A stretch of 63,409 bases of DNA, counting the filler, from Kipferlia bialata (lineage: Eukaryota), in the NCBI GenBank assembly GCA_003568945.1. It is 4 parts of 4 records of this genome, joined end to end, with 100 filler letters (N's around TTAATTAATTAA, not from the genome) between each part and the next. Parts side by side here need not be neighbours in the genome. Positions count along the whole stretch, not along the records: positions 22,245 to 44,296 come from BDIP01000307.1; 3 more parts are not named here. One strand, written 5' to 3'. The position numbers and the translations under genes were made by a program. The notes under the pieces were generated by a model, which worked only from the letters and a program-made list of their open reading frames with translations, did not search any database and was not told the origin of the DNA. Each line of letters begins with the position of its first letter. Positions within the stretch are counted from its first letter, which is position 1. This document shows, one piece after another, positions 18,701-54,250 of this stretch.

Positions 18701-21700
18701 AGCTCTTGGGTGTATGGATAGGACCCGCCAAAAGACAGATCGTACACGGTTTCACTTGAGACATCAGTAACAAGCAGGGTCGCGGTGTAGGCGAAGACAG
18801 GGTTACGACACCAGTCCACGGCAGCGATCTGCCACTCCCTTGGGGTACCAGGTCTGACAAACCAGTGGCCGAAATTGACGAAGTTCCGATACCACTCTTG
18901 TTCCAGCGTGATTACGTCACTTCGCCCCACCTCCTCCCCATAGAGCCGGACAGAAAGATAGTGGGGACCAGGAGTCAGAGGGGGCTTCACCGACCAATAC
19001 GTGTACGTTGCGGAGGAGAAAGACGTAGTGTATTCAGTCACGACCTCGTTCTCTCCGTCGTCCCAGTGCAGACTCATCTGGGAACGATACGAATCGGTTA
19101 CTGGCCCGGACTCATTGAGAAGTGAGAACTTGACGTCTGCATTTCTGCAGAGGTCGGTGTGACGAAGCTCCTGGAACTCCACCGAAGGGGCCGATGTCTC
19201 CCTCGTCGCTTGCCATACCACCACACCCTCCACAGAGAGGGCAAACTCGTAGGTAGTAGGCTCGGCTGGGGAACTCAGACTGAAGGTGTACTTAGTGGGA
19301 GTAGACGAGGAATCGAACACCACTGGAACCACCTCGTTGTCAACAGTCAGCACAGGGCCTAGGTCTGGGAGGGCATCGTAGGAGTAGAGGCTCGACCGGA
19401 CTGGAGAGAGAGCCACGGAGCATTCCACAGACTCTGAGAGGAAGTTGGGGAGCCCACTGGCGATACTCTCTTCGGCGTCGACGTTGTAGCTCTTATCGTC
19501 TCCAGGGACGGTGACCCTAATTGTAGGGACGTCCAAGTACATCCTCTTGTCAAGAGACCGGTACGTGGCTCGCACGTAGTATCGACCGGAGACATCAGTG
19601 GTCAGAGTCACCTCGTGGCCGTTAGACACCATGCCAGTCCCTTCGCTGTGGAGAGAGTAGCCTGACCCATCCCGCCTGAGAAGGTCGAAGTAGACCAGGC
19701 TATTCTGAAGGAGATTCCCACAGAGGTTAAGGATCGGCATGGATACGGCAAAAGGGGTCCCTACGACGGCATCGTCAGGCACCACTAGGGTCAGAGGTTC
19801 CTCGGACTGTGAGTGTGACACTCTAAACAGGGAAGACTCCAGGACATGGGACTTGTACTGCACCTAAGGTCAGACGGGCAACAGTGGGGTGACACATATA
19901 TACATATATATCCACAGGTGGTATACCGTGCACAGATACAGGTATGTCTGGTATATATTTGTATTCAGAAACATATTCATACGAATTTGTGTATCTCAGA
20001 CTGTGATACAGATGGAAATGGGAATGGATACCTCAATACGTAGACTGGATATTGACCCCGCCGGTGTAACCAGGTCAACAGAGTAGCGAGAGTCACTACC
20101 GAAGGACAGCCCTGTCTGCTCTACCAGAGGCTGGCTTTCAGTGTTGTAGCCCCCTATGTACACGGTCAGATCTTTAGAGTGAGAAGCAGAACTCAAAGAG
20201 GCTCACGTCAGGTGACATTACATGTACACACAAATTCTAGTGGTACCAGAGTTACACTCCTCTCTCTCTATATAGTCAACTCACCCTCTGACAGATCAGT
20301 CTCATAGACGTCACCATTGTGCTTCACGTAGAACGACACGTTATCCATGGTCTGACAATACGACTGCAGCTGGTATGGTGGTAGCCCAACGCACAACTGG
20401 AAATCTGGTACATCCCAATAGACTATCTTACCCACTTTCTGAAGTCAACGATGAGAACTTGTCGTATCCAATACGCAAACAGTAAGATGTCTTGGAACTA
20501 TTACTGTCAGAGTGCTTGCTAGAGAGGTCCTTCAGGTACCTTATGGATGTTGCTAAGATTGTACACGTCTGGGTACCCCTGGTAGAGAGTGCTGCCGCTC
20601 AAGGTCATGTAGGAGGACCTTCCGACCTTGTACTCGGAGGTGTCCATCTGGAAGACAGAGGCGTGTTCCCACTCGGCGGCAGGGAGGGGGGAGAGGCGGA
20701 AGATAGACACAGGAGGGTCTTCCGGGTAACCGTACCCTTGGTACTGGCCCCCACTAGATATGGCCAAGGTATTGTTGGCCAGGGCTATCCGCTTCCCCCA
20801 GTACTTGCCGTAGGTGTGAGTGCTGACCTGGAGTGTGGTAGAGAGGGCCCAGACCCCCTCAGCGTCAGACGAGTAGATGTGGACAGAGGCAGACGAGGAG
20901 TCGGAGAAGGTACCCATCTGAACATGAGAAACAGTTTCAGCATATGTGAGAAGAACACCCTCTTGACACAGGCCACAGAGAGACATACGGTTGAGGTCAG
21001 AAACCAAAGCGTGGCACACTTACTTGGTTGATGGCCACCGTCCCGTGTTGTCCCGTCCGCAGGTCGAGGGCCAGACTCTTTCCAAAGGATGTGTCTCCTG
21101 CTGACCCACTCCCCTCAGGTCTAGACAGTCGCTGACTAGGGGGCAGGTCTTGCCACCCCGCCACTCTCAGGTCATACACCAGCACTTCCCCAGCTGAGGT
21201 GCCGATCTGGTGGGTGAGGCAGACACACCGGCAGAAGGAGAGTGGAGAGAGGGAAATGCACGCGCAGCTGGTACTAGAGCATGCTCTGTGAGGATGCACA
21301 CCATATGTCCGGGACTGTACGTACCATCATGATTCCAGTATCTGCCTGAATGAGGGTTGGAGTGAAGGAGTATGAGAACTCCACTCCGTCCCCCCACGTC
21401 CCATCCGTCTGGTCCCTCACATGCACCGTCACTGAGTCACACCAAGAGTTCCCATCCCCAGGGCAGTAACCCATGACTACAAGGGTGTCCCCCCCTAGCC
21501 AGAGGCTGTGCCCGTACTGGGTCAGAACAGAGAGAGAGGGAGACTGAGAGTGACTCTCTCAGAGAGAGAGAGAGAGTGTGTCATAGGGGGGAGATCACAC
21601 AGGTTGTGGAGAGGAAGATACTAAGGGCGGGGGAGGGGTGAATTCAAAGGATGTCAGTGGGGATTGAACCGCACCTCAGCTTCTTCAGTGAGGGTCGGAG

Positions 21701-22144: not shown

Positions 22145-22244
22145 NNNNNNNNNNNNNNNNNNNNNNNNNNNNNNNNNNNNNNNNNNNNTTAATTAATTAA
22201 NNNNNNNNNNNNNNNNNNNNNNNNNNNNNNNNNNNNNNNNNNNN
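22145..22244. other. Artificial contig-joining linker N44-TTAATTAATTAA-N44
   Basis: TTAATTAATTAA at 22189-22200 gives stops in all six frames and is flanked by 44 N on each side. Confidence 0.95.
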
Positions 22245-27223: not shown

Positions 27224-30200
27224 CTAGTCTAGGAGACAACATCCTCCTCTGGCGGCCAATGTGTCCACCATAAGTGCATATGCATACATCCCCTCAGCCC
27301 CACTAGGGCATGATGTAACACCAGCCACTGGGTATGACCCAGACCCCTTAGTATTGCAATACGCCCCTATTGTCATGTATGTACCCCCAACACTGTCCCC
27401 CAACACCTTCTTCACCCCCTCCTGTCCTAAAAACCACTCTGCAGTAACTGTATCGTACACACATGTCTGAAAGTGCCCACTACCCAGTCCAACGAGATAG
27501 GGACCAACGGTTACCATATCAACACTGGTCATAGCGTCATCTGGTAAAGCTCCCTGACAGACCCACTCCCCTACGTGACAAGTATTATACTTGTCACACG
27601 TAAACGAGTAGAGCTCACCATCGAGCTCTAGGTAGACAGTATCTACAGTGGACGCAAGCACAGTCCAGTACTCCCAATACTCTGGTTGTTAGTTCAAAAG
27701 ATGCATCTAATACAGGAGACACAGTGTTGATTGACAACAGTTGTCAGTCCAGTACCCCCAGTACTCTGGTTGTCAGTTCAAAACACACACATATCTGAAA
27801 AGGGTACATAGTATTTGTCAAACGCGATCTGACCTGAGTCTTCTTTGAAAGAGGGTGACGGAAGCTGCGTCCACTCCTTAGTATAGGACGAGAATCTTAC
27901 AAAACGAGTATTTGGTCTGTATTCCTCAGTACTGCCCACTATGAGCAAGTAGAGGCATCCGTTTAGAGTGAAGCTGCAACAGCCTGTAAATGAGATGACG
28001 CTTCATATATACATATATAAGTAGGTTGTAAATATATAATGTTCACGTGTAGAGTGAAACTGCAACAGCATGTCAATTAGACTCTCTCGCTATCTCTCTC
28101 TCAATCTATGGAATGATGTCTGTGTGTGTATATATATATATTAGGTCATTATTTTACCCCATTAATTGAACACGCCATAACTAGTGTTGATATACATTAG
28201 ACTTATATATACAGTGATATATATAATAGAATGATGTATATAGTGTGCGTACCTGACTCGTATAGTGATCTGATCCAGTCAGGGGACAATGCTAGACCCG
28301 CTCCCTCTCTCTCCCCCTCCTCCCCAGTAATGTGCCATTCATCCATCACCTTCCACCTGGGTATCAGTATCAGTATGAATATCATAAGAATATCAGTATC
28401 AGCATCACTACTACTCCCCGCTGAGTATCAATATCAGCATGAATATCAGTATCGGTATCACAACTACTTCCACCTGTGTGTCTCTCTGTCGAACAGAAAC
28501 AAGTAGTATGCGCCACCTGCAGTCTTGCCAATGGCATATCCAGTGGAACCAATGAGCTGAGAGGTAAGACTGAGGGAGAGAGAGACAGAGAGAGAGAGAG
28601 AGACAGGAAGAGAAGTGTCCTCCAAGACCCGAAAAACACAATATGCAAACACACTATTCATAATTCTTTCAATATTTATATATATACACTACAGATTTGA
28701 TTTCGTCGAATAGGTGACCCTCTTCGTCAACAATGTCACGAAAAGTACATTATACATGTACACTATACATGTATATGTATCACTATTAGGGATACACATA
28801 TATAGATTTATGCATTATAGATAAGTATACCTCGAACAGGTGACCCTCTTCGTCAACAATGTCACCCCAGGGTAGAGGAACGCTCCGTAGGGCACACACA
28901 CTTTTAGAGACACTGCAACCACCCTGGGATAGGGAGGTACTGTGTATCTGTTTATGCATCAACACATTGATAAGCAAGAATTCATTCTCTCTCTCTCTCT
29001 CTATACATACCTATATATACAGTATATATAGAAATATATGCATATCAATACCTCATGGCAGTACTCTCCGGCAGAGTCACTAATTCTACGCCTCTCTCCC
29101 TAACTCTCTCTTTATCTCTCTCTCTCTATATGTATATATATAGTATATAGTATAGTATATATATATATACTTGCACGTACTATCCTCAACAGTACTCTCA
29201 GGCAGTGCCACACATTCTCTCTCTATATATCTTCATATGCATAGAGAGAGAGTATATATACATACCTCAACAGCAGTACTATCAGGCAGTGTCAGCACAT
29301 AGAACTCCTCGTTTCCTCCCTGGTCTGCTAGCAAGACCTGTTTGTTAGTCTATATATATAAGTATATGTATAGAGAGAGGGAGAGTAAATCTAGCAAGAC
29401 CTGTGTGAGTGGAGAGTCGGGAACAGCACATACAATAGGCGACACAAACCCAATTGTTTGCTAAAATAATAGGACTCTATCTGTATGAACATGTGGAAAG
29501 ACCCCTTACCTGTGGGAGAGTGAGACATATATGCAAATATATATATATACATATATAGAGACAGACAGATATACTTACCTCTGTGGGAGAGAGACTCATG
29601 ACACTCCGATAGTCTGCGTGCTCTAGCACTACCCTGGTCTCTCTGTCTCTCTCTCCCTCTCTCCTACTGGTCTCTGTCTCAGTCAGTGTGGGCACATGAT
29701 TAGCCCCTGTTAGTCAGTGTCTGTATATATGTATATGTGCAGCAGAATCCATGTGTTTATGTCTCTATGTATATATGTATGTATACGAGACTATATATAC
29801 CTATGGTGATTGGAGTGGGGTACCACTGGACCCTGAAGGGAAGGCAGAACTGGGTCAGAGGTATGAGTCTATAGAAACATTGCATACATATACCCGATAT
29901 CATAGCCATTATAGGAAGATAGAAATATGAGGTGCCTGAGAGAGAGAGGGTTGTATACATAGGGAGGGAGACAGACGCACCATGTATTGACAGGCCTTGG
30001 AGTGAGAGAGACACAGACACTCACCACACAAACACATACATACACATAAATACAGCATTATACTAATATAGTAAAGCAATACAGTAATGTAGAACACACC
30101 ATGTCCTGACAGGCCTTGGAGTGTGTGGACCAGTCATATTAACATGTATATAGAAGAGTTGTATATATATATACATATATATGCAGTGGGTGTGTGGGAG

Positions 30201-31041
30201 AGAACCGCACCATGTCCTGACAGGCCTTTGAGTGTGTGGACCAGTCATATATATATTAGAGTTGTATACATACATATAGAGAGAGAGAGAGAGAAACAGA
30301 GTATGTACCATGTCCTGACAGGTATTTGAGTGTGTGGACCAGTCTCTGCGCATATCAGTGAGAGGCACTAGGCGCCATCCACTCTCATTCTCTCTCTCTC
30401 TCTCTTTCTCTTTCACTGATGTTCTTCTCCTGTTAGAAACAGGGACAGACACCTCACACATGTCTCTCTCGGCACAGGTGATACAGCGCAGGTAGGGCTC
30501 TGAGAGTCAGTAAACACACGTTAATTGTACATTAGAGATACTGTGGGTAGTTGGGTGGGTGTAATTATAGGAGAGAAGGTGGGAAGAGAGGGGATAGGGG
30601 GGGGGGGGGTTCCAGTCCACTCTAAATTATTGTGCGTGCTGAAATGCAGATATAGCCACAGTGAATAATCTAAGAGATATATGTATCTGTATATATAATA
30701 GTATATACATATACTGAATGATGTAACAGTGACAGAGAGAAGGACATATTTAGATATATATATATGGAGCCTCACCTGCATACAACCACTGTCTGCCCGA
30801 CCCCTGTTCCACTGCCTGTACCAGTGCATCCAGGGTGTCATAGTCAATAGACCAGAGGGCAGCTGGTATACCTGGGTGAGTACACATATACACAATACAT
30901 ACAAATGTAGCAATTTCGTTCACTATATTTATATAGGTATATATTCATTATATACATATCAACACCTGTGCCCATGGGGTCGACACGGACACTCATCGAC
31001 TCCTTCTGTAACAAAGAGGGGTCTCTCTGCCGGTTCAACAA
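27224..31041 (-). CDS. Multi-exon kelch-like protein (possibly degenerate)
   Basis: The terminal segment reads TVYLELDGELYSF...GEWVCQG...VTVGPYLVGLG...CVYDTVTAEW. Upstream exons read WKVMDEWH, LIGSTGYAIG, VLLADQGGNEEFYVLTLP and VYQLPSGLLTMTP. The frame at the ~27700 junction is not cleanly resolved. Confidence 0.5.
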
Positions 31042-31521: not shown

Positions 31522-34500
31522 TTACAAATCTCTCTTGTATGTTGTCTTAACACTGACACTGCTGGTCGGAGCGTGCTGCCAAACCACAACCAGAGGGTAC
31601 TCTGCCCAATCGCTCCTCTTACAGTAGAATGAAATGTCCTCTCCCTTCCCCTTTGTGGTGTTCACAGTGACATCGGAAATGCACTCTCGCCTCCTAATCT
31701 GAGTGCTGTCACCGCACCGGATGACTAATATTGAAAGACTAGATGTAGAGCACATGAACGAGACATTTACAAGCTTCACGCACACGTTCTGTTTTCCACC
31801 ACCGAAGCCGCCGGGACAAAACGTTATGAACACCTCGGTCCTTTCCCTTGGAAGCACTGGAGGTACATGTAGGATACTCTCCCAGACTCCCTTCCAGTCA
31901 GAACGCTGCTCACTGGAAGGTTTCTGAGGCTGTTCACCAATATATGCATATTCTCTCACGGATAGGTAAACAAGCTGATACCCCTCACTGCCTTCGTCCA
32001 GAACCAAGGAGTCAAACACACGAGCCCTCAGTTTGGTATCGGTCAGTGTGCACCCCCTGAGATCTGCTCCCCGAATATCCACCCTAGTTAGATCAAAGCC
32101 TCTCAGATCAAGCCCCTTCAAGTCTATCCCCTTGGCACTCTTTATCCTCTCCGAAAGCACAACTTCGACATGATGTCCATCCTCTGTGGTAAGTGCGCTC
32201 TCTCTCACGAACATGGTTGATCTGATTCCAGTGGCGTGACGCAGAATGGTGCCGTCGAGGGTAGCGTCTGACAGACAACAATCGGTCAGGACTGCCCGGC
32301 TGAGGTCAAGACCGGAGAGGTCTGCGCCAGTTAAATCTACTTCTGTCAGGTTGACACCTTGGACAAAATACGCCTCATGTAGGTGGGTGCACTTCAGCCC
32401 TGTGCCTGACAGGTTGGCGTTTCTCAAGTCCAGACCTTTGAAGCTAACGCCCTTGAGGTTCAGTCCATGAAGGTTAATACCTTTAACACTAGTTGCCTTG
32501 CAAAGCATATCCCCTCTTAGTCCTGTGACACCTAGTAGACTGGCATGGGAGAGGTCAAGACCGGATAGATCCCACCCAGAAATGTCTAGGCCTGAGAGAT
32601 CCACTCCTGCACAACTTGCAGCAGTCCTTAGGACCCTTGGTGTGACACCCGTTGCGACTGAGAGCTCACAACCACTCAATGTGCTACCGTCAAGGTCAGC
32701 AAAGGTGAGGTTTAGTCCGTTCACATCTAGAGTGGTCAGAGCTCTCTTCCTAAGGTCTGGACCTCCGAATGATACGCCAATTAGGGTGGCAGAAAATACA
32801 TCAGTGTCAGTGAAACTGCAGTCTTCGAAGCTGCAGTCAATGAAGTGGGCGCCGAACACCTTGGCCTCGTCTAGCTGACATCTGATGAAGGTACATCTCT
32901 GGAAAGTGGCACCACTAAGATCCACAGAGTTCATGTGGCACTCTGTGAAAGTACACTGCTTTGCCATGACACCACGGGAGGACGTGATGGTAGCACCCAC
33001 AAACTGCCACTGTACTAGGCATCTGTTCTCAAGAGCAGGTCCTACATCTATGCATCCTACACAGACGTGTGTCGCATATCCAGTCTGCAGAAGATGGTAG
33101 AGATGGTCCGTGGATGTGACCTCTATCAACAAAGCCACAGTACTTGTTGTTGAGTCATCATCGGTCTCTCCCACTGTATTCCACACACCCTCCTTGACCT
33201 CGAAACACTGAGTCAGTGTTACACTGACCCTCAGCCGGTGCAAGTCCATTCAGGATTGAGTGGCCTACATACTCTCCCATGCCTGACCCATGGGCAGAAG
33301 GCACCAAGTCAACGTCACCAACTCTCTCCTCAGGGAGTACTCGGTAGCGCCTGTAACCAGTGTGTGTCATGAGCACAAGGGAGCGGCCATCCGGGTGGGC
33401 GAGTACTGGTCCACACAGTGCATATGGTATCAGGGATGCTGTGGATGTGTCGAGGTCAACACAGAGTAGCTGCCCGTGCATGGTAGTGTATATGTGTTGT
33501 CCAATACATACAGCAGGTGTGTCAAGAGCTGGGATGGGGACATCCTGATCCTCACCTCTCTTCTTGGGAGCTACAAGTACACCCCACTTGGCATCCGCTA
33601 CCTGCCACTCATAGACACCCATTATGGTGAGGGAGTCGTCGAGGGAGACAGCGACTACTCTTCCATCCATAGGTGCTAGAAGGGTGGGAGGAAGATGTGC
33701 GCCCTCGATGTCGAGAGACTCCGGTAGAGTGGGGATCTGAGAGCCGGAGACGTCAGACACCGTAGCCAGCTGCAGTGCAAATCTGTAATCCCTTAGATCT
33801 ACAGATATCAGACTGTCTTCTCTTGCATAGAGACAGTATCCGTGGAGGGCACAGGTGTCAAGGATGTCCCCATCCAGGTCTCCTGATGTGTTCACTACCA
33901 CACACGTAGAGTCATACGTGGCTAAACACAGCATGTGAACCAGGGGGTCATAGAAGACAGGTCCGATTGGTGTGCATATCTGAGGGAGGGTCACGGCTGA
34001 TCTGGACACTGTCCCTGAGGAGAGGCATACGTTGGTGTACTCTCCACCAATACCCACAACAGCAGTGTCGAGAGTTCCAGACAGCCTGAGTGTATGATAC
34101 ACTCTATCACTCACAGGTACCACTAGAGGAGTAGAAAGTGTGCACGACAGGTTGACACAGATACCCTCACTGGGATCTACAGAGAGACGCAGTAGGTGAG
34201 AGAGGCGTCCGTCAGTGACTGGGGCAACCAGAAGAGATCCGTCGCTCTGAGGCCCAAGGTGTATTGTCTGACTCTCGTCCAGCAACACACTAGCTTCAGG
34301 ATCTAGCCTGACCGGAACTTCACTCCAACAGAACTGAGCATCACCAACAGGTGCACTGTCTTGTGAGGTGCTTGCTCTGATGCCATATGCAGTCATACTG
34401 TCTCCTTCTGTCACCAGGTGGAGCACACCACCATGAGTGCACACATGGTGGCCTGTGTCAGGTACACCAGCCACAGGGGAGAACTGTACCACCTGTGTGA

Positions 34501-35951: not shown

Positions 35952-38900
35952 CTAGACGCTCTCCTCAGCTGGGACGGCAGCGTCCATGTCACCCTCGCCA
36001 GAGGCCCTCAGGAAGACCTGGGGGGTCAGTGCCAACACATAACTATACATATATATGTATACTGCACGTAGTATACAGTACTATATACACAGGTATTATA
36101 CCTCAAACAGGGATGTGGATGCCAGACCCATGTCCCTGATGGCCAGTCTCTCAGAGTTCATCTGGAGGTACCTGTAATTAGACTTGTCTGTGCAGGTATC
36201 ATTGTAACTGTAGGGATATTCCAACGTGTAATTACTATTAGTATCAGCATGTGTCTAATTGTGGTCACAGTATATACCTGTAGATGGTGGCAATGTCTCC
36301 TGTGGCTGTTGGGATCCTGAACACATAGTTGCCAAAGACACGCTCGGCCTCAGCGGCAGGGCAGACCTGAAGGTGAGTGTGTGATTATATGTAGAGAGAA
36401 GTCTAAATAACTGCGGACCACACAATAACCGTACCTCCTTCACGCCCTGCACGACTGGGTCCTCTGGCAGAGGCAGGGTGCAGTTCTCGGCAATGAGGGA
36501 CAGGGTGAGACCGGTGGAGTATCTGGCCTAGGGTTAGAGACATATATTCACAGAGATCCACTACAATATACATATTGAGCAGGAGAGAGAGACTAGGGTG
36601 AGACCGGTGGAGTATCTGGCCTAGGGTTAGAGAGTATCTATACATAAATATGTGACACATAGAGAGGGATATAACTTCTCAAGAGATAGAGAGAGAGAGA
36701 GAGAGATACCTTCAGGTCCACGGCAGAGCCCTCGCAGCGGATCTTTCCGTTGACAACAATCAAGATACGGGTAGAGAGAGCCTCGGCCTCCTCCATCTAC
36801 AGGGTCAGATACAGATGTCATGTGTAACAATAATATATACATATATATATATAGAGAGAGAGTATTGGTGAATGGGGTGGACAGAGCCTCGGCCTCCTCC
36901 ATCTACAGGGTTAGATAGATACAGAGAGATCCGCAAAGTATAGTGGCATAGTATAATACTGATATATGCAAGAGAGAGAGAGTGGACACGTACACTGTGG
37001 GTGGTCAGGAGCACAATCTTGTCCTTCTGGGCCTTCCTGCGGGGTTAGAAGGTTTTCAATACATCACATACATATATATCAATATGGATTAATATATACA
37101 CACATGTATACATACTGTACCTGATGTTCCAGAGGCCTTGTACCTTTCAATATATCTATCTATACACTCTATCTCATTCTATCTTTCTATCACTGTATAC
37201 ACACACACATATATATATATACATACTGTACCTGATGATGTTCCAGAGGCCTCTCCTGGACTGGGGGTCAAGGCCGGTGGTGGGCTGGGCGTGAGAGGGA
37301 GGGGGGAGAGAGAGAGGCAGAGGTTGAACCAACACGATATAGAGCGTTGAGAATGGATTCATATTTGTATACCTCTTCGAGGAATATCATGTCGAATGTT
37401 GTTCACTCAGTAGCATAAATATGTATATATATACTATATAAATATGTATATATATACTATATGAGTACGTTACCTCGTCTAGGAATATCATGTCTGCGCC
37501 TCCGATCAGGGCAATGGCCACACTGATATATATATATAAATATATATATTTGTATATATAGCACATACAATGTAATATACTATCAGTATTGATACAATAT
37601 ATGTACTAACCTCGTCTAGGAATATCATGTCTGCGCCTCCGATCAGGGCAATGGCCACACTCAGTCTCCTCTTCATGCCACCGGAGAAGGTACTGGAGTG
37701 AGATACATGTATATGAATCTAAATCATATTAACAAGACATGTATTATATACTAATGTCTACATACCGCACTGCGTTCTTGGCCACGTTGGCCAGCTGGAC
37801 ATATCCATACAAATAGGATAGTGTAGTATATATAAGATATATATATATAACATACCGCACTGCGTTCTTGGCCACGTTGGCCAGCTGCACATGCTCCAGC
37901 ATGGTGTCACACTGCTCAGACAGGGCAGCGCCAGAGAGACCCTTGAGGTTAGGTATAGGGAGAGAGAGAGAGAGAAGGTATGGTGTCACACTCCACAGAG
38001 AGTCAGACCCAGAGAGGCCCTAGAGGGTAAGAGGGATATCCTTATCTATCTATATATACAGAGAGAGAGACATAGATATATCCATACAATACCTTGATAG
38101 CACCGTAGAACATGAGGTGGCTCCTGGCATCGAGGTCGAGCCACAGGGCATCGTCCTGGGGGCACACGCCGTATCTAGAGGTAAGGAGAGGTATATAGAT
38201 ATTCATAGGGAGATAGAGATGGATTGAGAGATAGAGAGAGAGAGAGAGAGTGACTGGACATCGTCCTGGGGGCACACGCCATACCTATAAATGAGAGAGA
38301 GAGAGAGAGATTGAGAGAAAGAGAGTGAGAGGAAGAGAGAGCTCTTGGGAAATAGTTTGTGGTACAGATTCATCCTCGATCCACCCACTGTATATCCCCA
38401 TACCTGTGGCTGAGCTTAGCGCCTATGCACACATACATACACATATATATACATACACACATATATATATATATATGCGTATATATCTATATATAAGCGT
38501 ATATATCTATATACATAAGTATATATATATGAAGTGATGTATCTATATCCCTGTACCTGTGGCTGAGCTTTGCGATGGAGGCCATGCCGGGCTTGGCCTG
38601 ATATAAGGGGCTAGAGAGAGAGAGAGAGATCACCCACGAGAGTACATGCACAATAAGTATTCGGTCCAAGTATGAGCACTAAGTCATACACTATTGTGTA
38701 CACGTCTATACCTGTGTCATGACTGTCTGTCCGAGGGCAGTGACTAATCATCCATCCACATACCATAGTAATGTTTACAATGGTTACATATATCCACTAC
38801 ATATATATATATATATGTATATATATATGCCCACACCTGTGTCATGACTGTCTGTCCGAGGGCAGTGACGTCACCACAGGCCTGGGGTGAGGGACATCAA

Positions 38901-39778
38901 CACGCAAGGACATACACATAGTCCAAATGTAGAGACAGAGAGAGAGAGAGCGAGAGTACCTTGACGCGTCCAAGCAGGGTACGGATGGTGGTCGTCTTGC
39001 CAGAGCCGTTGGGGCCTGGGGTCAGTGATATGAATGTCTCCACTGTTTCAATTACCAATATAGTGTTATCCTGTAAACAACGCAATGCATGTGAATACCG
39101 CTACACATACTCACCTAGGACTCCGAGGCACTCTCCCATGTGTCCTGTGACCTCTCTACCCCCCCCCTCTCTCTCTCAATAGTATCACCACCATATCTCT
39201 ATCATATATATATATATTTCACCATACCTAGCACTCCGAGGCACTCTCCCCTGTGTCCTGTGAGAGAGACACCACGGACAGCATGGATGGGGGCACCGCC
39301 TGGGGTGAATATACACTACACATAGTAGAAATGGAGAGAGAGTGACACCGCTATCTCACTATTCAAGCATGTACCTGGGTTGGGGTATGTGACGTGGAGG
39401 TTGTCACCATGATACATATACTATAAGGATATACTACATACACTATGATATAGGATATGTGTAGGTGTATAATACCTGGGTTGGGGTATGTGACGTGGAG
39501 GTTGTCCATCATGATACGTACCGTTATTGTGCATGTTACTATACACTATATGGGATATGTGTAGCTGTAATATACCTGGGTTCGGGTATGTGACGTGGAG
39601 GTTGTCCACCTTGAGGAGGGTGTCCCCAGAGTGCTGGTTGATGATGGCAGAGGCAGAGGCATCAGTGGTGAGAGATATCTGGAGTTAGTAAAGAGAGAGA
39701 GAGAGAGGGAGAGAGAGAGCTGGCAGATGATGGCAGAGCCAGAGGCATCAGTGGTGAGGGATATCTGCTCATTAGAAG

Positions 39779-39813
<35 letters not shown>

Positions 39814-39872
39814 TAATGGTTGATGATGGCAGAGCCAGAGGCATCGGTGGTGAGGGAGATCTGTATTTTAGA

Positions 39873-39923
<51 letters not shown>

Positions 39924-40810
39924 TGTTGATGATGGCAGAGCCAGAGACATCAGTGGTGAGGGAGATCTGTATTAGAAGGGGGGGGGGGAGAGAGAGAGAG
40001 AGTGAAAGAGAGAGAGAGAGAAATGGTTGATGATGGCAGAGCCAGACATGTCGGTAGTAAGGGAGATCTAAGGGTAAGAGAGAGAGAGAGTCCAGTATGA
40101 ATATACAGTATACATATTTACATACCTCTCCGCTCTCCTCTGCCACAGGCACCCTCTCCACCACTGCAGTGCTGGCCTTCTGGCCCTTCAGCTTGGCCCT
40201 GGGGGGTCAGAGAACTATCATACTCATATGCAACACATAACATATTGACAGCATTATTGGTGTAAGGAGTTTACCTGATCTCGAGCATCTTTGATAGTGC
40301 CACTGCTATCCACGCCTCGATGTGCTTGTCAAGGATGGCACCCAGGACCATGCACACAATGCCAACGGCAACAAGAATGGCAATGATCTGGGGTGAGTAC
40401 ATGGTAAATATATATGTGTAAATTGAATGGTACTCCAAGATGGTAAATATGAATTCAAGTGAGAACACTTGAACAAACTTAGAGTAATACAACCATAATG
40501 ATGTATCATGTGATACTATACAATATACACATATACATGAATATAAATACCTGGAAGAAGTAGTCCTCTGCGTCTGCCAGGTGGAACTCGTCTTCATCAG
40601 CCACAATATATAAATGTCACATATATATATTATAGTATATATATAGTATATGGTAGAGTAATAGTGTAGTTATATGATTACACTACTGTACCTGGAAGAA
40701 GTAGTCCTCAGCGTCTGCCAGGTGGAACTCGTCCTCATCAGCCATGATGAACAGGAGCTGCATCACAGCCATGGAAGGGAGGGCGGTGGAGACGTTGACC
40801 TGGGGTAAGG

Positions 40811-40854
<44 letters not shown>

Positions 40855-40903
40855 TGCATCACAGCCATAGAGGGGAGAGCGGTGGAGACATTGACCTTGA
40901 GTA

Positions 40904-40950
<47 letters not shown>

Positions 40951-41221
40951 AAGAAAATTGTATATGTAGTATCTATATATTGCTCTCTCACCTGCTTGGG
41001 GGAGTATATGAATGATGCAATGGTGGCACATGTATATTGTATACATACATCACTAGGAGTAAGTGTATATACACAGTGTGTATATATATGTTAAGAAATA
41101 TACCTGCTTGGGGGAGTATATGAATGATGCGATGGTGGCACCCTCGTTAAGGAGAAGGACAAGGACCCAGCCAACAACGGTGGCAAGTCTCTCTGGGGGT
41201 AAGAAAGGGGGTGGGGGGAGA

Positions 41222-41269
<48 letters not shown>

Positions 41270-41721
41270 CAGTCAACCACAGTGGCAAGTCTCTCTGGGA
41301 GTAAGTAACAATTGAATAGTATGAAGAAATAATACTACACTCGTATAGATATCGGATGATATTAAGAAGCTACTTACAGATAAACGTGAATATATACTAA
41401 CCTGTGGGGAGGAGAGGTGCGATGAGGAAGGAGAATCCAACACAATATGTGACAGAAAGGGAGAGAGAAGGAGATAGGCTAAGACACAGCATATATACTT
41501 GTATACATACTAACCTGTGGGAAGGAGTGGTGCGATGAGGAAGGAGAACCCGACGCTGGTGAATGCCCATGCCACAAAGACAATGACGAGGGCAGAGAGA
41601 TCAGAGTCAGCCACAACGTGGATGTCAAAGAGGAAGGCAAAGACAACCTGAGATAAGGGGCTAGAGGGGAGAGAGAGAGGATGTCAAAGAGGAAGGCAAA
41701 GACAACCTGGGATAAGGGGCT

Positions 41722-41755
<34 letters not shown>

Positions 41756-43879
41756 GTCAGATTCAGATCAAGGTGGGTGTCAACGAGGAAGGCAAAGAGG
41801 CCAATAACAATAGTATACAACATGAAACTGCTACTCACCATAATGGTAAAGGACACCAGTGAGAACAGGAAGAAGAACAGGAACATGACTGTGAAGTAGA
41901 CGGGGCGGCCCAGGCCAGAGACCTCCATCTGCTCTCTGATGCGGTGCTAGGGTGAGAAGGGAGGAATATACATGTATACAGAGAGAGAGAGAGGGTTTAT
42001 GAATGAAGGAGAGAGACCTCCATCTGCTAGGGTCTAGGGTCACAGATCCAAATAAATGTATGCGTGTGAATATATAGATTAAGAGAGAAAGAGAGAGAGA
42101 ATGAGTGTTCATACCTGTCTATCCGAGACCAGCTTGACCAGGAAGTAGGGCAGCAGGAGGTGGAGGCAGAAGCCTGGGGGGTAAGTAAATATATATATAT
42201 ATATGTATATATTCAATGAATAATGTATATATCTCGATATACATATATATATGAATGTATGGCAGCAGGAGGTGGAGGCAGAAGCCTAGAGGGTAAGAGA
42301 GATACGCAGTATGTATATATTCAAAGAATAATGTATGTGGTGAGTGGTGTATGGCAGCAGGAGGTGGAGGCAGAAGCCAGGGGGTGAGACATATATATAT
42401 CCGTATATGTCTACAGTATCATCGTATACTACGTACCCAGGACCTCAATAGCACCGAGGTCCATGATGGACATGACAGTATACATAACACCACTGTCTAT
42501 GACAATATACAAGAAGATACTGTACTATAGTACACTACACTATGAATATATATATATACATACTCACCTAGCACCTCAATGGCCCCCAGGTCCATGATGG
42601 ACATGACACCACACTATTCATATATACCTACTCTTACTATCATGATCATACATATAATATACGCACCCAGAACCTCAATAGCACCCAGGTCCATGATGGA
42701 CATGACACTATACATATACATATATATATGCCTACTATAACATATGTCTATAACTATATACACATAAACACATATTATATATATATATATACGTATATAC
42801 ACTGACCTAGCACCTCGATGGCCCCCAGGTCCATGATGGACATGACAGTGTCAGTGTCCTCAGAAGGGAAGGACTGCAGTTAGAACCTACATGTACNNNN
42901 NNNNNNNNNNNNNNNNNNNNNNNNNNNNNNNNNNNNNNNNNNNNNNNNNNNNNNNTATACTAAGAGACAGAGAGAGAGAGAGAGAGAGAGATGACAGTGT
43001 CAGTGTCCTCGGAGGGGAAGGACTGCAGTTAGACGAGAGTATAGACTATTACATGGGAACCGGGAGAGACAAAGAGAGATCGAGACATGACAGTGTCCTC
43101 GGAGGCGAACCTTATATTGTAAGAGAGAGTGATATGCAGTATGACTCAATATATACCTTTCTGCTTCTGGTGATGGCTTCCACACCACTGTCCTCAAAGT
43201 ATGCATTGTGCATCAGATCCATGCCTATGGGTTAACCCGAGATATATATGAACACACTAATACACATAATGTAGGGGGTATACCCCTCTATACCTGCTGT
43301 GACGTATGCACTGGGCAGCTTGGCCAAAAGTATCAGTATGACTATATAGCAAAGAAAATAGTATAGTGTATTCTACAATATGATATGGTATGAATATAGA
43401 GTGTATATATTGTGTATATATATACATACATACCTGCTGTGACGTATGCACTGGGCAGCTTGGCCATGCCGAAGGCATCCGTGTCGGAGTGGTTGAACCT
43501 GGTATCAGACATGTGAAGCTACTATAATGGATGGTAATATACATAAGTATAAATATATATTGACACTAATTAATATGATGTATTGTTATGACACTATATA
43601 CAGAAACCACTCACATGAGAGCGTACTCATATATGTATGTATCACACTATACATATACTTACTCACATGAGTGTGTACTCCAGGGCAGCAGCGGTGGGGA
43701 CCCACATAATATATATATAACTATAAACGACAATACTAGTGGTATATATACACTTAATACATATACTAACTCACATGAGTGTGTACTCCAGGGCAGCTGC
43801 GGTGGGGACAGAGTCTGCGCCATAGCCAATGATGTTCAGAGGGGTGTCATACCACACATCCATGATCTGAAATAAGGGG

Positions 43880-43924
<45 letters not shown>

Positions 43925-44000
43925 GTACGTGGTCATCGATGGCGTCCATGTCAGTGAAGGAGTAGTCCACAGTGACGGCGTCATAGGTGCCAATGTCACC
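35952..44000 (-). CDS. ABC transporter subfamily A (one TMD and one NBD visible), many small exons; 5' end at or near the scaffold end
   Basis: Walker A GPNGSGKTT (exon 38960-39015); GVCPQDDALW; signature and Walker B SGGMKRRLSVAIALIGGADMIFLDE (37611-37692); PTTGLDPQSRRGLWNII; H-loop LLTTHSMEEAEAL; ABCA tail STSLFE|VFLR...EESV* (stop 35952-35954). TM exons read MEVSGLGRPVYFTVMFLFFF and LLLPYFLVKLVSDR. Confidence 0.92.
39372..43110 (-). repeat. Intronic arrays of partial exon-edge copies with their own splice sites (ABCA gene)
   Basis: Examples: 4 extra acceptor+ISLTTDxSGSAIIN copies (39725-40070), 2 DNLHVTYPNP+donor copies (39372-39507) and 3 VMSIMDLGAIEVL+donor copies (42437-42706). Confidence 0.9.
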
Positions 44001-44296: not shown

Positions 44297-44396
44297 NNNN
44301 NNNNNNNNNNNNNNNNNNNNNNNNNNNNNNNNNNNNNNNNTTAATTAATTAANNNNNNNNNNNNNNNNNNNNNNNNNNNNNNNNNNNNNNNNNNNN
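44297..44396. other. Artificial contig-joining linker
   Basis: N44-TTAATTAATTAA (44341-44352)-N44. Confidence 0.95.
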
Positions 44397-44703
44397 CTGC
44401 TAGCAAGGTATATATCGCCTTCTTACTTCTGCCCCCCCCCCCCCCCTTTCCTCTCTCTCTATATTAATATAGTATTGTACCCTTACACGAGATGAGCATA
44501 ACTTTGCGTTTGTCAACCCAGACACCTGTCTCTCTCTCTCTGTCTCTCTTTCTCTATCTCTGTTTAACAGAGCTGAGAACGATATCGCTCTGGTGAACCC
44601 AGACAGCTCTCTCTCTCTATATATATATATATACAGGTATATACTATACACTATCTCATCATAGGGCCGAGAATGACATAGCCCTTGTCAACCCAGACAG
44701 CTT

Positions 44704-48508: not shown

Positions 48509-51500
48509 CTAAATCTCTCCCTGTCTCTCTCTAACGGCTTTGATGATCGCCTTAGCCATCTTGTGCCCCCCTGTTACACTAGGCTCCACTCTCTGCACAT
48601 AGTCAGTAGTGTCACTGCCATCCATAATCTAGAGTCAGCAGTCATAGCATAGTGAGTATTTATACTCATAGCTGCTATGAGTCATAGCATATATAGTCAT
48701 CCAGAGTCAGTGCTGTCACTGCCATCAAGGACCTGGGATGAGATTACGACTAATTAACCTATATATATACTACTAAGAATAATAGTTGAGGCACATAGTC
48801 AGACGGGTCACTGCCATCAAGGACCTAGTGTTAGGAACACCTGTATAGTGAGTATATTGTGTCACTGCCATCAAGCCTCGAGTGTCAGTATCATCCATAT
48901 ATATATTATATAGTATACATATACAATACAGAAATCTGGTTGATATCTTTACATATTAGTATACCATATTCGGTATACCAGAATATCATATCGGTAGGCA
49001 CACCTCATACAGTGGACATGTCACCACATTAGTCCCAACGATAGATATCCGAGTCACAGCCATCTCGTATATCTTTCGAATGACTAGCTGCAGTCTGTAT
49101 GGGTCACTGTCATATCTGGAGTTAGGCAATTTGGCGGCCTAATGGTATATATAGAATATACATACTATATACTATACTGCCATCTAAACCGTATCATACC
49201 TGCTGTTAGCATAATACTGTAAAACTATAATACAAAAGTGTGTCCTGGAAGACGATTATCTGTGTTTGTGCTACACCTTATGTATAGTACAAGAAATGAA
49301 GTATATCTATTGTATGACTATTTGGAGTCTAGAGGGCTCTGTGTCGTACCTAGAATCAGAGATGACAGGGTGACATACAATGGCATTTGATCACTAATCA
49401 AATTTGATTCGCAGTCCACTGAATAGCCACATTGTATTCTCTCAGTTACTCCACACCAGGTACAGTATATCTCAGTAGCAGCATTAGATCTGCATTCTAT
49501 GAAACATAGTATGTTACATACTCCATTCTCTTCAGTACCCAATCTGCCCAGCTGCCCCCAACAGTCACATCGGGGTAGCTCTATAAATATACATAGTGAT
49601 TACAGGTAGAAGACCAATCTTGATAGTGTAAGTGACTCACCCCATGCGCCTTAGCACCCAGTCTGCCCAGCTACCCCCCACTGTCACATCGGGGTAGTGT
49701 ATCATGCACACAACCACCGTCCTGGGCACATGCAATGACACTAGAGTCTCTATATAATCTTGGACTCTGAGAGTAAGTATTAATACACGGCTAATACACA
49801 ATAGAATAATTCTATTAGGATATTTGCTGGACAATAGAATATATATAGCAGTACAACCACTGTATTTGGCACATGTACAGACTCTAGAATCTCAAAGCAC
49901 TCTTGCACCCTGTCTATGAGTAATTCAATAGATGGTAGACATATAGTGTATCTGAATTACAGATACAATGTAAGTCAATGGTATGTAGAGTTTACTTACT
50001 TATCTTTGAATAGTGTATTGGACACTCATTCAATATATGTATACCTGTCTCTAAATAGGGTGACAAAGTGCTGAAGCCCAACTGCTGTGCCATCTTCTAT
50101 AGAGGCCAGAGAGGCTACCGAGAGCAAACAGCCCATATGTGCTACTGTTAGATCCATTTGCGTCACTAAAGTGCTGTGATGTCGTAAGATATCCCATTCA
50201 TGATGTTTCACTCACCTATATGTGATAGCGTTACATAACATGATCTACTATATGAGAATCAACCACCTATTGTTGAGAGTGTTGGGTGAAGTGCAATGTC
50301 GTTGCTACCCACTGACACCACTAGGGTGTCATCAGAGGTGATATGGTCTCGGATGAATCTAATTAGTTAGAGCAATGTCTCCGCTGCACACTGCTGTTGA
50401 AGTGAATAGATATTTAGGTAAAGAGTAATAAATAGTAAATAGTATACCATACTCTTACCTGTCCTGTGAGAAGAGTGTCCCTCGGATGTAAAAATACAAT
50501 ACACATGGGAAATCATTGAGTCCCTACACTGTATCTAATACTCCTGGACAGATACCTATCTTGTGGCAGTAGTACCCCTCCCCTCCGCTGTCTAAGAGTT
50601 GACTCCTCCACTGCTGTGTTGATACACGTGACACCTGGAATAAGGATAGGTGAAAGAGATCAGTTGCTGTTCTTTTTCTGGATACTATATATAGATTTCT
50701 AAATTAGAGACTCTCTAACTCCTCCACTGTTGTGTTGACACACGTGACACCTGGCATAAGTAGATATGATTTGATACAGGTGGCACCTGGTATACGTAGA
50801 TAGGTAATATAATATATTAAATATATCAATCATGGTTCTGACTCTAGATAGTAGGAAGATGCCACTATTTGTTGACTCCTCCACTGCTGTGTTGATACAG
50901 GTGACACCTGGTGTAACTGGAAGAAGTCACTAGGGAGATACTATTGACACGTTGAATAGTATATAATATCTTCTACTGCAGTGTTGATACACGTGACACC
51001 TGGCATAGGTAGATATGAACAATATGACTGGCCGTTACTACTGATGTGTTCACTATACCTAGTTCTACATTAGTGTCACTTAGTCCACGCGGAGCTGCGG
51101 TCGAAAAGTATAATTGTCTGATCATTACAGTACCTTGAATGTTCATCCAATGACACATATCTGGTACTTACATCGGAAAAGAGAGTAGATATAATCTACA
51201 TCTCTCACGGCATAATATCCATACTATGAATACAGTGTTCTATATGTAGTATTACCCTCTTTGTTCATCCAGTAACAGACATCTGGCACAGACAGATGGG
51301 GGAGAGAAAACAATTGATTGCTCTGCCAATACTTGTACCCCAGTAAGTATGGTATAATGATACACTATAATAATATACCTTCAATGTTCATCCAGTAACA
51401 GACATCTGGCACAGACAGTGGGGGAGTATAATCATAAGTACTAACGTATATATACTATGTATACTATATATCACATAGTAATACGTTACCCTCTCTGTTC

Positions 51501-52335
51501 ATCCAGTAGCACACGTCTGGCACAGACAGTAGTGGAGAGACACCACAGACAGGTCATACAGTAGTATTCTACCATACTGCACTATATATACTATAGTCTT
51601 ACCCTCTTTGTTCATCCAGTGACAGACATCCGGTACAGACAGTGGGGGAGAGAGTATACCCTTGTACTGATCAGCGGCGGGTACCCTTGGTGTGTCAAGC
51701 AGCCAGTGCTTGTTGTCTGGGATCAAATGTGTTGTTCTAAACTAGTGAACAGTATATCCTCTATACTCTACCAAGACAGAATAGATGGGGTTACACGCTG
51801 TGTCGCAAGTTGCGACTCGCAACAGAGACAGCAATTTCGTAATACCCGTATTGTGCAGTGAACATGATACCTAAGCTGCTGTCCCCTGCCAGAAACCATA
51901 TGGGCTCTCCTAGGTCTCGCAAGCATGGAACAACCTGGGACAGATGCTCAACCCTAGCATAAGGAGAGAGTGATGAAGCAGGCTTATATATATATGAATA
52001 TCTATGGGTTCTATTATAGAACTTCTATATAGGAGTGTAATGTATGCTAACAACTATCACAACCGATATTCTTCGACGTAAACTACATGTGTGAGTTATA
52101 TGTGAGAGTTACAGTCCGAAGACAGTGTGTGTCCAGTAATTCTGGACCAGAATCGACAGAGAAACACAAAACCTGTGGCGAATGTACTCTAGGTATTAAT
52201 TAGTAGGGCCTAGTGTAGAAGCATTGCAAACATTAATGATACGGTCAAAAGACTTTCATGACTGTGCAACACTATACCTGTGGCCAATGTACTGCAGATA
52301 ATACTCGTCAGAGGGCACACCCATATGCTGAAGGA
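48509..52335 (-). CDS. SGNH/GDSL hydrolase-like protein (multi-exon)
   Basis: The spliced translation gives WFLAGDSSL|DNKHW (block I GDS), GVTCINTAVEESTL, FIRDHITSDDTLVVSVGSNDIAL (block III GxND), VVVCMIHYPD and DYVQRVEPSVTGGHKMAKAII...GEI* (stop 48509-48511). The start codon is not fixed. Confidence 0.75.
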
Positions 52336-53222: not shown

Positions 53223-54250
53223 CTCCTGCCCCCCTTTCCCGATGCTGCCCATACAGTCTCTCCACTGGAGACTCCAGCCCCCCCCCCCCAGAATGTTCAC
53301 ACATCACGCCTATATTCACGACAAGTACAATAACAATATTCATATACATATACATATGAATAGTATACAGTACTATGATCAATATGTGAATTGTTCTAGA
53401 AGTACTGTTGGTACCTGTCTCTCTCTGCCGCTTTGCATCACTTTCTCCCAATCTATCATCATTCACTCCAGGCCCCGTATGTTTCCTATATATTTCTTAT
53501 TTCATTATTATTATTCATACTCTCACTAAGCTGCATGTTCTATTTGTTTCTGTGCGGGGTGGGAATTGATTTCCTCATCATTGCCCCCTCCATATGTACT
53601 GTTACTGATACATAGTCTATTATTTCTTCTAATAATCTATTACTTATTAGCATTGTATCACTACCTGATATCAGATGAGTTCCGCAAGGGAGGCCGTGAA
53701 TGCCTTTAGGTCTTTCTGCAAACAACACCCGCATATGTCTTTTGACGAGGCAATGGATGAGTTCATTGGACAGGTATGCGTTAAAGGAGAAACCGAGGAT
53801 GCACCGATGTTTCTGTAGTGTATTCTTCAGTAATAGAAGTATATATATAATTACAGTGTAGTTGTGAAAATATTGTATACACCCTCCTCTGTGTCTTACT
53901 GCCGTCTCATATACCATATGCAAACTTCAGTGTCAAATGAGACTATTACATATGTAGTATGTGACCCTAGTTGACCCCCCCCCCAACCACTTTCGTGTCA
54001 TCTATATATGTATAAATATAATGATATATACATACATATAGATACTGACCTCCAGTTACCCCCCCAACCACTGCAGTGTGACACTCCCATGTCCTTGGCT
54101 GAGTGGAGAGCCCTGGCTCCAGGTATACATGTACACACACACACTCATATATATATACGTGTGTATGTGTTTGTATACTAATCCAGGGAGTGACAGGCAT
54201 ATATCTTAGTATTTGTATATATATGCATGTATGTATATATACTAATCCAG

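What the first reader, a model, noticed from the sequence alone, without database searches (positions are those of the whole stretch)
42437..43022. Intronic exon-edge copies that differ from the real exon only at synonymous sites
Seen: the real ABCA exon 42807-42873 (minus) ends GAC CTG GGG GCC ATC GAG GTG CTA G|gtcagt. Three ~40-nt copies follow in the intron (42667-42706, 42568-42607, 42437-42476), each with a different donor (gtgcgt, gtgagt, gtacgt) and unrelated intron sequence. They carry 5, 1 and 6 substitutions; all 12 are synonymous and every copy encodes VMSIMDLGAIEVL. All three start at the same point and lack an acceptor. The upstream acceptor copy (42991-43022) also differs only synonymously (CCT>CCC, TCT>TCC). 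Established: dead intronic DNA should mutate regardless of codon position. Inference: the copies were or are under protein-level selection. Options are spare exon ends swapped in by unequal crossover or gene conversion, capture of divergent alleles, or an unknown splicing mode. I know of no description of this.
Basis: partly seen in the sequence, partly recalled or inferred. Interest (0 to 1): 0.9.

Follow-up and report, generated by a model that had tools for sequence, protein, structure and literature searches.

The report
Spare exon ends stored in introns
In this intron-rich genome, many introns hold tandem copies of the neighbouring exon's end that differ from it mostly at silent codon positions, likely because recombination keeps copying in working exon ends from very different alleles, which would make a single genome a record of its species' diversity.

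Summary
The three donor-side copies carry 5, 1 and 6 changes, all synonymous (7 distinct changes, not 12). In seven gene models, 40 of 122 exon edges have intronic copies (61 copies); an eighth gene has none (0 of 62). pN/pS is 0.15 (0.12 for copies keeping GT/AG); simulated neutral decay gives 0.80-0.88 and duplication followed by decay 0.42-0.44. Copies also differ from each other mostly silently, and copy donors score like real donors. The one RNA contig uses only the real exon. DNA contigs link neighbouring copies to real exons at single-copy depth, but do not cover the three focal copies. Most likely these are splice-junction tandem repeats refreshed from divergent alleles by unequal crossover and gene conversion. 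In my toy model, outcrossing with about 20% silent diversity reproduces the ratio; 11 clonal runs never fell below 0.34. No second isolate was available, so this is inferred. The layout is known (human F7-type minisatellites); protein-level conservation of such copies was not found in nine literature searches. The scan noted a similar, weaker case in another genome.

The parts
42807..42873 (-). Real exon (exon 5 of the ABC-transporter gene model), donor GTCAGT
   Evidence: RNA contig matches 42806-42875 with 0 other letters
42667..42707 (-). Donor-side copy 1, 5 synonymous changes, donor GTGCGT
   Evidence: not covered by laid DNA contigs
42568..42608 (-). Donor-side copy 2, 1 synonymous change, donor GTGAGT; its intron start resembles the real one
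42437..42479 (-). Donor-side copy 3, 6 synonymous changes (4 shared with copy 1), donor GTACGT
42991..43022 (-). Acceptor-side copy of exon 5, 2 synonymous changes, followed by a CT run
   Evidence: DNA contig record 6 at depth 479
42897..42955 (.). Assembly gap that likely hides about two more acceptor copies identical to the real exon start
   Evidence: record 5 (93 nt) at depth 1299 versus about 450; residual depth 925 in two bins
43064..43109 (-). Older, more diverged acceptor-side copy of exon 5, lacking one 6-nt repeat of the real exon
   Evidence: self-BLAST 83%; read from sequence
42257..42377 (-). Two acceptor-side copies of exon 6 (42377-42349 lacking AG; 42285-42257), each CCC>CCA
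   Evidence: DNA contigs records 2 and 3 at depth 439 and 414
42115..42173 (-). Real exon 6
35952..43999 (-). ABC-transporter gene, 27 modelled exons, 29 edge copies at 21 of 54 edges (45 S, 16 N)
   Evidence: the subfamily label ABCA is recalled, not tested
44571..44605 (+). Acceptor copy in a second gene: 6 changes at six consecutive third positions, all synonymous
51256..51653 (-). Donor array in a third gene: real end 51653-51603 and three scored copies with silent changes plus a few amino-acid changes (H>Y, K>R, K>I, P>L)
61304..61644 (-). Acceptor array in a fourth gene: three copies, 8 changes, all synonymous

Best explanation
These are short tandem repeats of about 100 nt that span a splice junction, and their exon part and splice site are likely refreshed by unequal crossover and gene conversion with the working exon end of other, highly divergent alleles. 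Shown: the layout, the silent-site excess, intact splice sites, and use of only the real exon in the RNA contig. Inferred steps. (1) A micro-duplication across a splice site is tolerated because it lacks the other splice site. (2) Misaligned pairing in the shared 17-53 nt puts a working exon end, splice site and intron start from another haplotype into a spare slot, and all units inherit one junction. (3) The reverse event puts a spare into the working slot, where selection removes amino-acid or GT/AG damage. (4) Real-versus-copy silent divergence (about 0.19) then approximates silent diversity among alleles, and copies decay once exchange stops. The copies would be a by-product, not translated and not necessarily adaptive.
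For: pS 0.189, pN 0.022 in 56 copies keeping GT/AG; all 61 give 0.191 and 0.029. Copy-versus-copy sites: 26 S, 20 N over 105 S and 342 N sites, p 1.5e-6. 30 of 31 donor copies keep GT and 26 of 30 acceptor copies keep AG. Copy donors score 5.53, real donors 5.53, random intronic GT 3.24, yet 22 of 30 differ from their own real donor at +3..+6. The order real, C1, C2 (like real), C3 (like C1) fits an offset exchange. Toy model with outcrossing, theta 0.2 and crossover 500 times mutation: ratio 0.09-0.12, pS 0.20-0.23, copy-copy 0.18-0.23 (observed 0.24 by hand), GT kept 0.98 in 4 of 4 runs; 11 clonal runs gave 0.34-0.97. Decayed, frameshifted copies exist.
Against: No second isolate or allele was seen, so high diversity and outcrossing are untested; the laid DNA contigs list no variant letters (contigs drop variants). 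Theta and exchange rate were tuned to pS and pN, and outcrossing runs at 10-200 times mutation gave ratios of 0.95, 0.75 and 0.39. No run fits everything: crossover alone leaves introns about 24% diverged, whereas 38 of 53 copies have introns no closer than random pairs. Adding conversion gives 0.66 intron divergence but pS 0.35. Clonal arrays often collapsed to about one unit, so those runs hold few copies. The predicted gradient is weak (pN/pS 0.09 near the splice site, 0.31 beyond 30 nt; rank test p 0.14). Two small gene sets show no clear excess (1 S/3 N and 2 S/4 N).
Confidence: 0.55

Rival explanations
1. Same exchange mechanism, but the divergent donors were the homologues of a past hybrid or polyploid, or paralogous genes, not alleles of a large outcrossing population.
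For: Any genetically distinct working haplotype satisfies the requirement seen in the model. Some copies carry several amino-acid changes besides silent ones (51540-51490: 6 S, 3 N).
Against: Per-copy silent divergence is a continuum from 0 to 0.82, not one class. DNA depth over the focal exon is accounted for without a paralogue at 80% identity or more (a filter may hide records). No whole genome was available.
Confidence: 0.14
2. A dedicated or frequent homology-directed repair route uses the copies as spare exon ends: breaks in AT- and CT-rich introns are resolved by annealing the real end to the next copy, so copies are kept functional by selection on the outcome.
For: Copy donors are at full strength. 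Genes with copies mostly have microsatellite-rich introns (0.11-0.19) and the gene without copies does not (0.022). Some protists lack Ku-dependent end joining and rely on homologous recombination (PMC8516963, passages); whether this organism does is unknown.
Against: In clonal runs, exchange fast enough to purge amino-acid changes also erased silent differences (pS 0.01-0.04). One gene with copies has few microsatellites (0.025). No deletion-form DNA joint between real and copy is listed.
Confidence: 0.11
3. The copies are spliced into some mRNAs by an alternative or non-canonical route and are selected directly as coding sequence.
For: It would explain silent-only change and intact splice sites directly.
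Against: The RNA contig (2511 nt, depth 161) has the real exon 5 and the real exon 6 codon, joined canonically. Only 6 of 30 donor copies have an AG near their start and 6 of 26 acceptor copies a GT near their end. Contigs drop rare forms, so rare use is not excluded.
Confidence: 0.08
4. Assembly artefact: divergent haplotypes were laid end to end.
For: The three focal copies are not covered by any laid DNA contig; they make up 5.8% of the words in the searched stretch, and the DNA run lacks 7%. The DNA run may be the assembly's own source.
Against: One 322-nt contig holds an acceptor copy and real exon 6. Contigs with copies have depth 414-479 against 452-468 for unique sequence, and their ends fall where the window's repeated 31-mers predict. 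Long microsatellites alone account for 5.7% of words. Copy junctions contain no N.
Confidence: 0.07
5. Ordinary duplication and neutral decay, with the silent excess due to drift of the real exon, mutation bias or alignment bias.
For: Where all copies agree and the real exon differs, 11 of 13 changes are silent, so part of the signal can lie on the real lineage.
Against: Expected silent fraction 0.46, observed 72 of 113, p 8e-5. Simulated ratio 0.42-0.44. Changes run both ways in GC content (29 versus 24), and copies differ from each other silently.
Confidence: 0.04

Closest known systems
Minisatellites whose first monomer spans an exon-intron boundary (human F7 IVS7 37 bp, CBS IVS13, LAMIN B2 100 bp, PDGF 81 bp, 6-16); PMC1557585, passages read
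   Same: Head-to-tail units that repeat the splice donor in the intron; in F7, LAMIN B2 and PDGF only the authentic (most upstream) site is used; some units are near 100 nt.
   Different: Those are single loci with 5-25 units; F7 has 4 exonic nt and identical pseudo-sites. Here 40 of 122 edges carry a few copies on both donor and acceptor sides, with 17-53 exonic nt, mostly unalignable intron parts and a protein-level signature; the passages read report none.
Intron gain by tandem genomic duplication / internal gene duplication (PMC4974935, listing and abstract start only; Gao and Lynch 2009, recalled)
   Same: Short intragenic tandem duplications involving splice signals.
   Different: There the duplicate creates a new intron inside coding sequence; here it sits in an existing intron and its exon part stays protein-compatible.
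Concerted evolution of duplicates by gene conversion, and silent donor cassettes such as chicken Ig pseudogenes or Borrelia vls (recalled, no call)
   Same: Unexpressed copies stay coding-compatible because they exchange sequence with an expressed locus.
   Different: Cassettes diversify the protein and are programmed; these copies conserve the protein, are 17-53 nt of exon, and sit in several unrelated genes.

Membership tests
Splice-junction-spanning minisatellite (F7 IVS7 type) | Head-to-tail units, one of which spans the real exon-intron boundary | tested here: met
   real-to-copy offsets 58-389 nt
Splice-junction-spanning minisatellite (F7 IVS7 type) | Reiterated splice sites remain silent | tested here: met
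   RNA contig uses real exons 5 and 6; one run, contigs only, two exons
Splice-junction-spanning minisatellite (F7 IVS7 type) | Units similar along their whole length | tested here: not met
   38 of 53 copies have intron parts no closer than random pairs
Splice-junction-spanning minisatellite (F7 IVS7 type) | Variable copy number between alleles | not testable with these tools
   both runs found come from one sample
Duplicated (mutually exclusive) alternative exons | Each copy has both an acceptor and a donor | tested here: not met
   6 of 30 and 6 of 26 have the missing dinucleotide nearby
Duplicated (mutually exclusive) alternative exons | Copies appear in mRNA | tested here: inconclusive
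   none in the RNA contigs laid, which drop rare forms
Neutrally decaying duplicate (pseudo-exon fragment) | pN/pS about 0.45-1 against the parent | tested here: not met
   0.12-0.15 observed; 0.42-0.88 simulated
Silent donor cassettes (programmed gene conversion) | Copy sequence moves into the expressed locus and diversifies the protein | tested here: inconclusive
   differences are mostly silent; transfer was not observable with one sample

The most novel reading that the evidence does not exclude
The genome keeps, at a large share of its exon edges, working spare exon ends with their own splice sites, and swaps them into the gene by homology-directed repair as a routine event: an intron-borne backup system in which untranslated DNA stays under protein-level selection.
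Probability: 0.12. Interest if true: 0.92.

Novelty: new variant of a known kind. Interest (0 to 1): 0.72.

Why it matters
Sequence that is not seen in the mRNA carries the signature of purifying selection on protein at about a third of exon edges in seven gene models. If the best explanation holds, one genome stores exon alleles of its population, so silent diversity (about 0.2), outcrossing and the rate of misaligned exchange could be estimated from a single assembly of a microbial eukaryote in which sex is hard to observe. It also predicts raised silent diversity at exon edges, offers many natural tests of choice among equally strong splice sites, and warns that such copies mislead gene prediction (my own predictor took one copy as an exon).

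Tried and rejected
No whole genome is held, so nothing genome-wide was possible. The run search found two runs of one sample; no holder is on record as RNA, though run X2 holds 0.17 of the words against 0.159 expected for spliced exons and joins exons. The three focal copies had no cover in either run; the tool says a hole proves nothing. An exact 21-nt exon pattern found 0 matches in metagenome contigs, which says little because silent variants would not match. A related-locus search with a 29-residue exon was too short. No homologue search of the ABC protein was obtained, so its subfamily, its paralogues and the organism remain open. Silent divergence did not correlate with intron similarity (rho 0.00, n 53). 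A tally of in-frame versus frameshifting indels was uninformative: 12 gapped alignments, many at copy ends. Rejected: mutation bias (permutation), alignment bias (simulation), mature-mRNA templating (copies end in GT and intron, not in the next exon). Rows dropped: 5 of 61 copies without GT/AG for the strict set, and 3 more with N for the intron test. Literature searches found no description of the silent-site signature; subscription journals are largely missing, and no supplements were read.

Full report
Observation. The focal exon 42873-42807 (minus) sits in frame in a 27-exon ABC-transporter model built from coordinates. The translation shows Walker A, signature and Walker B motifs; that reading and the label ABCA are recalled, not tested. 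Three donor-side copies follow at 42707-42667, 42608-42568 and 42479-42437 with 5, 1 and 6 changes, all synonymous, and the acceptor copy 43022-42991 has two. The 12 changes are 7 distinct ones, because copies 1 and 3 share four. The intron after copy 2 resembles the real intron start (p 0.020); the others do not.

Extent. Self-BLAST lists 76 close repeat pairs, none starting before 22,743. An ungapped finder anchored at exon ends, not requiring GT or AG, found 61 copies at 40 of 122 edges in seven gene models and 0 of 62 in an eighth, predicted 31-exon gene; 894 mismatched exon-intron pairs gave 0 hits. Aligned lengths are 17-53 nt, median 33. Gene models other than the ABC gene are predictions checked only for open frame and AG/GT.

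Statistics. All copies: 94 S, 45 N, by codon position 18/23/99, pS 0.191, pN 0.029, ratio 0.151. The 56 copies keeping GT/AG: ratio 0.118. Outside the ABC gene: ratio 0.18, 37 S and 27 N distinct changes, p 3.5e-9. Two small sets show no clear excess (1 S/3 N, 2 S/4 N). A permutation keeping each base change expects 33.4 silent of 113; 72 are observed. Neutral copies run through the same finder give 0.80-0.88, and duplication followed by neutral decay 0.42-0.44. Copies differ from each other at 26 S and 20 N sites (p 1.5e-6), so the signal is not only drift of the real exon, although 11 of 13 sites where all copies agree against the real exon are silent.

Splice sites and introns. 30 of 31 donor copies keep GT and 26 of 30 acceptor copies keep AG. 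With matrices trained on the copy-free gene, copy donors score as real donors (5.53 and 5.53; random GT 3.24), while copy acceptors are weaker (6.58 against 8.45; random -2.34). 22 of 30 copy donors differ from their own real donor at +3..+6, and 38 of 53 adjacent intron parts are no closer than random pairs. The copies therefore look like separately maintained working exon ends.

Reads. Two runs of one sample hold the stretch. In 41810-42896, an RNA-like contig of 2511 nt matches the real exon 5 with 0 differences, continues into exon 4, and carries the real exon 6 codon. DNA contigs hold an acceptor copy with real exon 6 (322 nt, depth 439), the second copy (414) and the 43022 copy (479), against 452-468 for unique sequence; their ends match the repeated 31-mers of the window. 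A 93-nt contig at depth 1299 and a residual depth of 925 in two bins imply about two more identical acceptor copies in the gap. The three focal copies are not covered, so their tandem order rests on the assembly. The DNA run may be the assembly's own source and is not independent.

Mechanism. At any time only one unit per haplotype works, so a single lineage cannot easily keep both sides of a real-copy pair under selection (inference). I tested this with a toy forward model: haploid, N 80-250, lethal amino-acid or GT damage in the working slot, arrays of up to 4 units, 30 runs. Eleven clonal runs gave ratios of 0.34-0.97, and fast exchange erased silent differences; their arrays often collapsed. 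Outcrossing at theta 0.2 and crossover 500 times mutation gave ratios of 0.09-0.12, pS 0.20-0.23, copy-copy 0.18-0.23 and GT kept 0.98 in four runs; slower exchange gave 0.39-0.95. Two parameters were tuned, so only the copy-copy ratio and GT retention are checks. Crossover alone leaves introns too similar (0.22-0.26); adding short conversion gives 0.66 but pS 0.35. Faster slippage in these microsatellite-rich introns could close the gap, but I did not model it. The predicted gradient is present but weak (pN/pS 0.09, 0.09, 0.13, 0.31 by distance bin, computed; p 0.14). I put this explanation at 0.55; the rivals are a hybrid or paralogue donor (0.14), a routine spare-end repair route (0.11), rare splicing use (0.08), artefact (0.07) and neutral decay (0.04).

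Comparison. Nine searches (listings and abstract starts) found no report of protein-level conservation in such copies. The organism was not determined. One genome paper of an intron-rich protist, checked on a recalled resemblance only, has 0 occurrences of 'tandem', 'duplicat', 'heterozyg' or 'ploid' in its main text (PMC5874029, passages; supplements not read). PMC8516963 (passages) states that metamonads lack Ku70-Ku80; its relevance here is untested. Conversion theory and cassette systems are recalled.

Verdict. A real, statistically strong and window-wide feature; a new variant of a known kind of repeat, most likely a by-product of exchange with divergent alleles. Interest 0.72.

Noticed in passing
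window 892-9232 (minus): Predicted 31-exon gene with no exon-edge copies and few intron microsatellites (0.022 against 0.11-0.20 in most other genes); copy density is patchy along the window.
   Followed up: partly
window 22145-22244, 44297-44396, 58472-58571: N runs flanking a 12-nt all-frame stop spacer: the window joins separate contigs, and genes next to these joints are cut.
   Followed up: partly
window 57860-57830 (minus): Possible very old acceptor copy reading VVLFLDSA against the real VILLVDPA in a gene that looks thioredoxin/PDI-like (label recalled); below the finder's threshold, read by eye.
   Followed up: no
window 37140-37120 (minus): Donor copy of ABC exon 21 with an in-frame 3-nt loss, read by eye and missed by the ungapped finder.
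   Followed up: no
window 39678-40067 (minus): Four acceptor copies of a linker exon; all scored copies share one amino-acid difference from the real exon (A>G), suggesting a recent change in the real exon.
   Followed up: partly
window 31525-33249 (minus): Long open frame with pentapeptide repeats (Pfam PF00805, E 9e-37).
   Followed up: partly
window 54103-55695 (plus): Long open frame with a weak protein-kinase match (PF00069, E 5.8e-7, below the curated cut-off).
   Followed up: partly
window 15796-19863 (minus): 1356-codon open frame without a Pfam match.
   Followed up: partly
window 27620-30350 and 48560-49700: Further exon-edge-like arrays (self-BLAST) in genes I did not model; not counted in the tally.
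   Followed up: no
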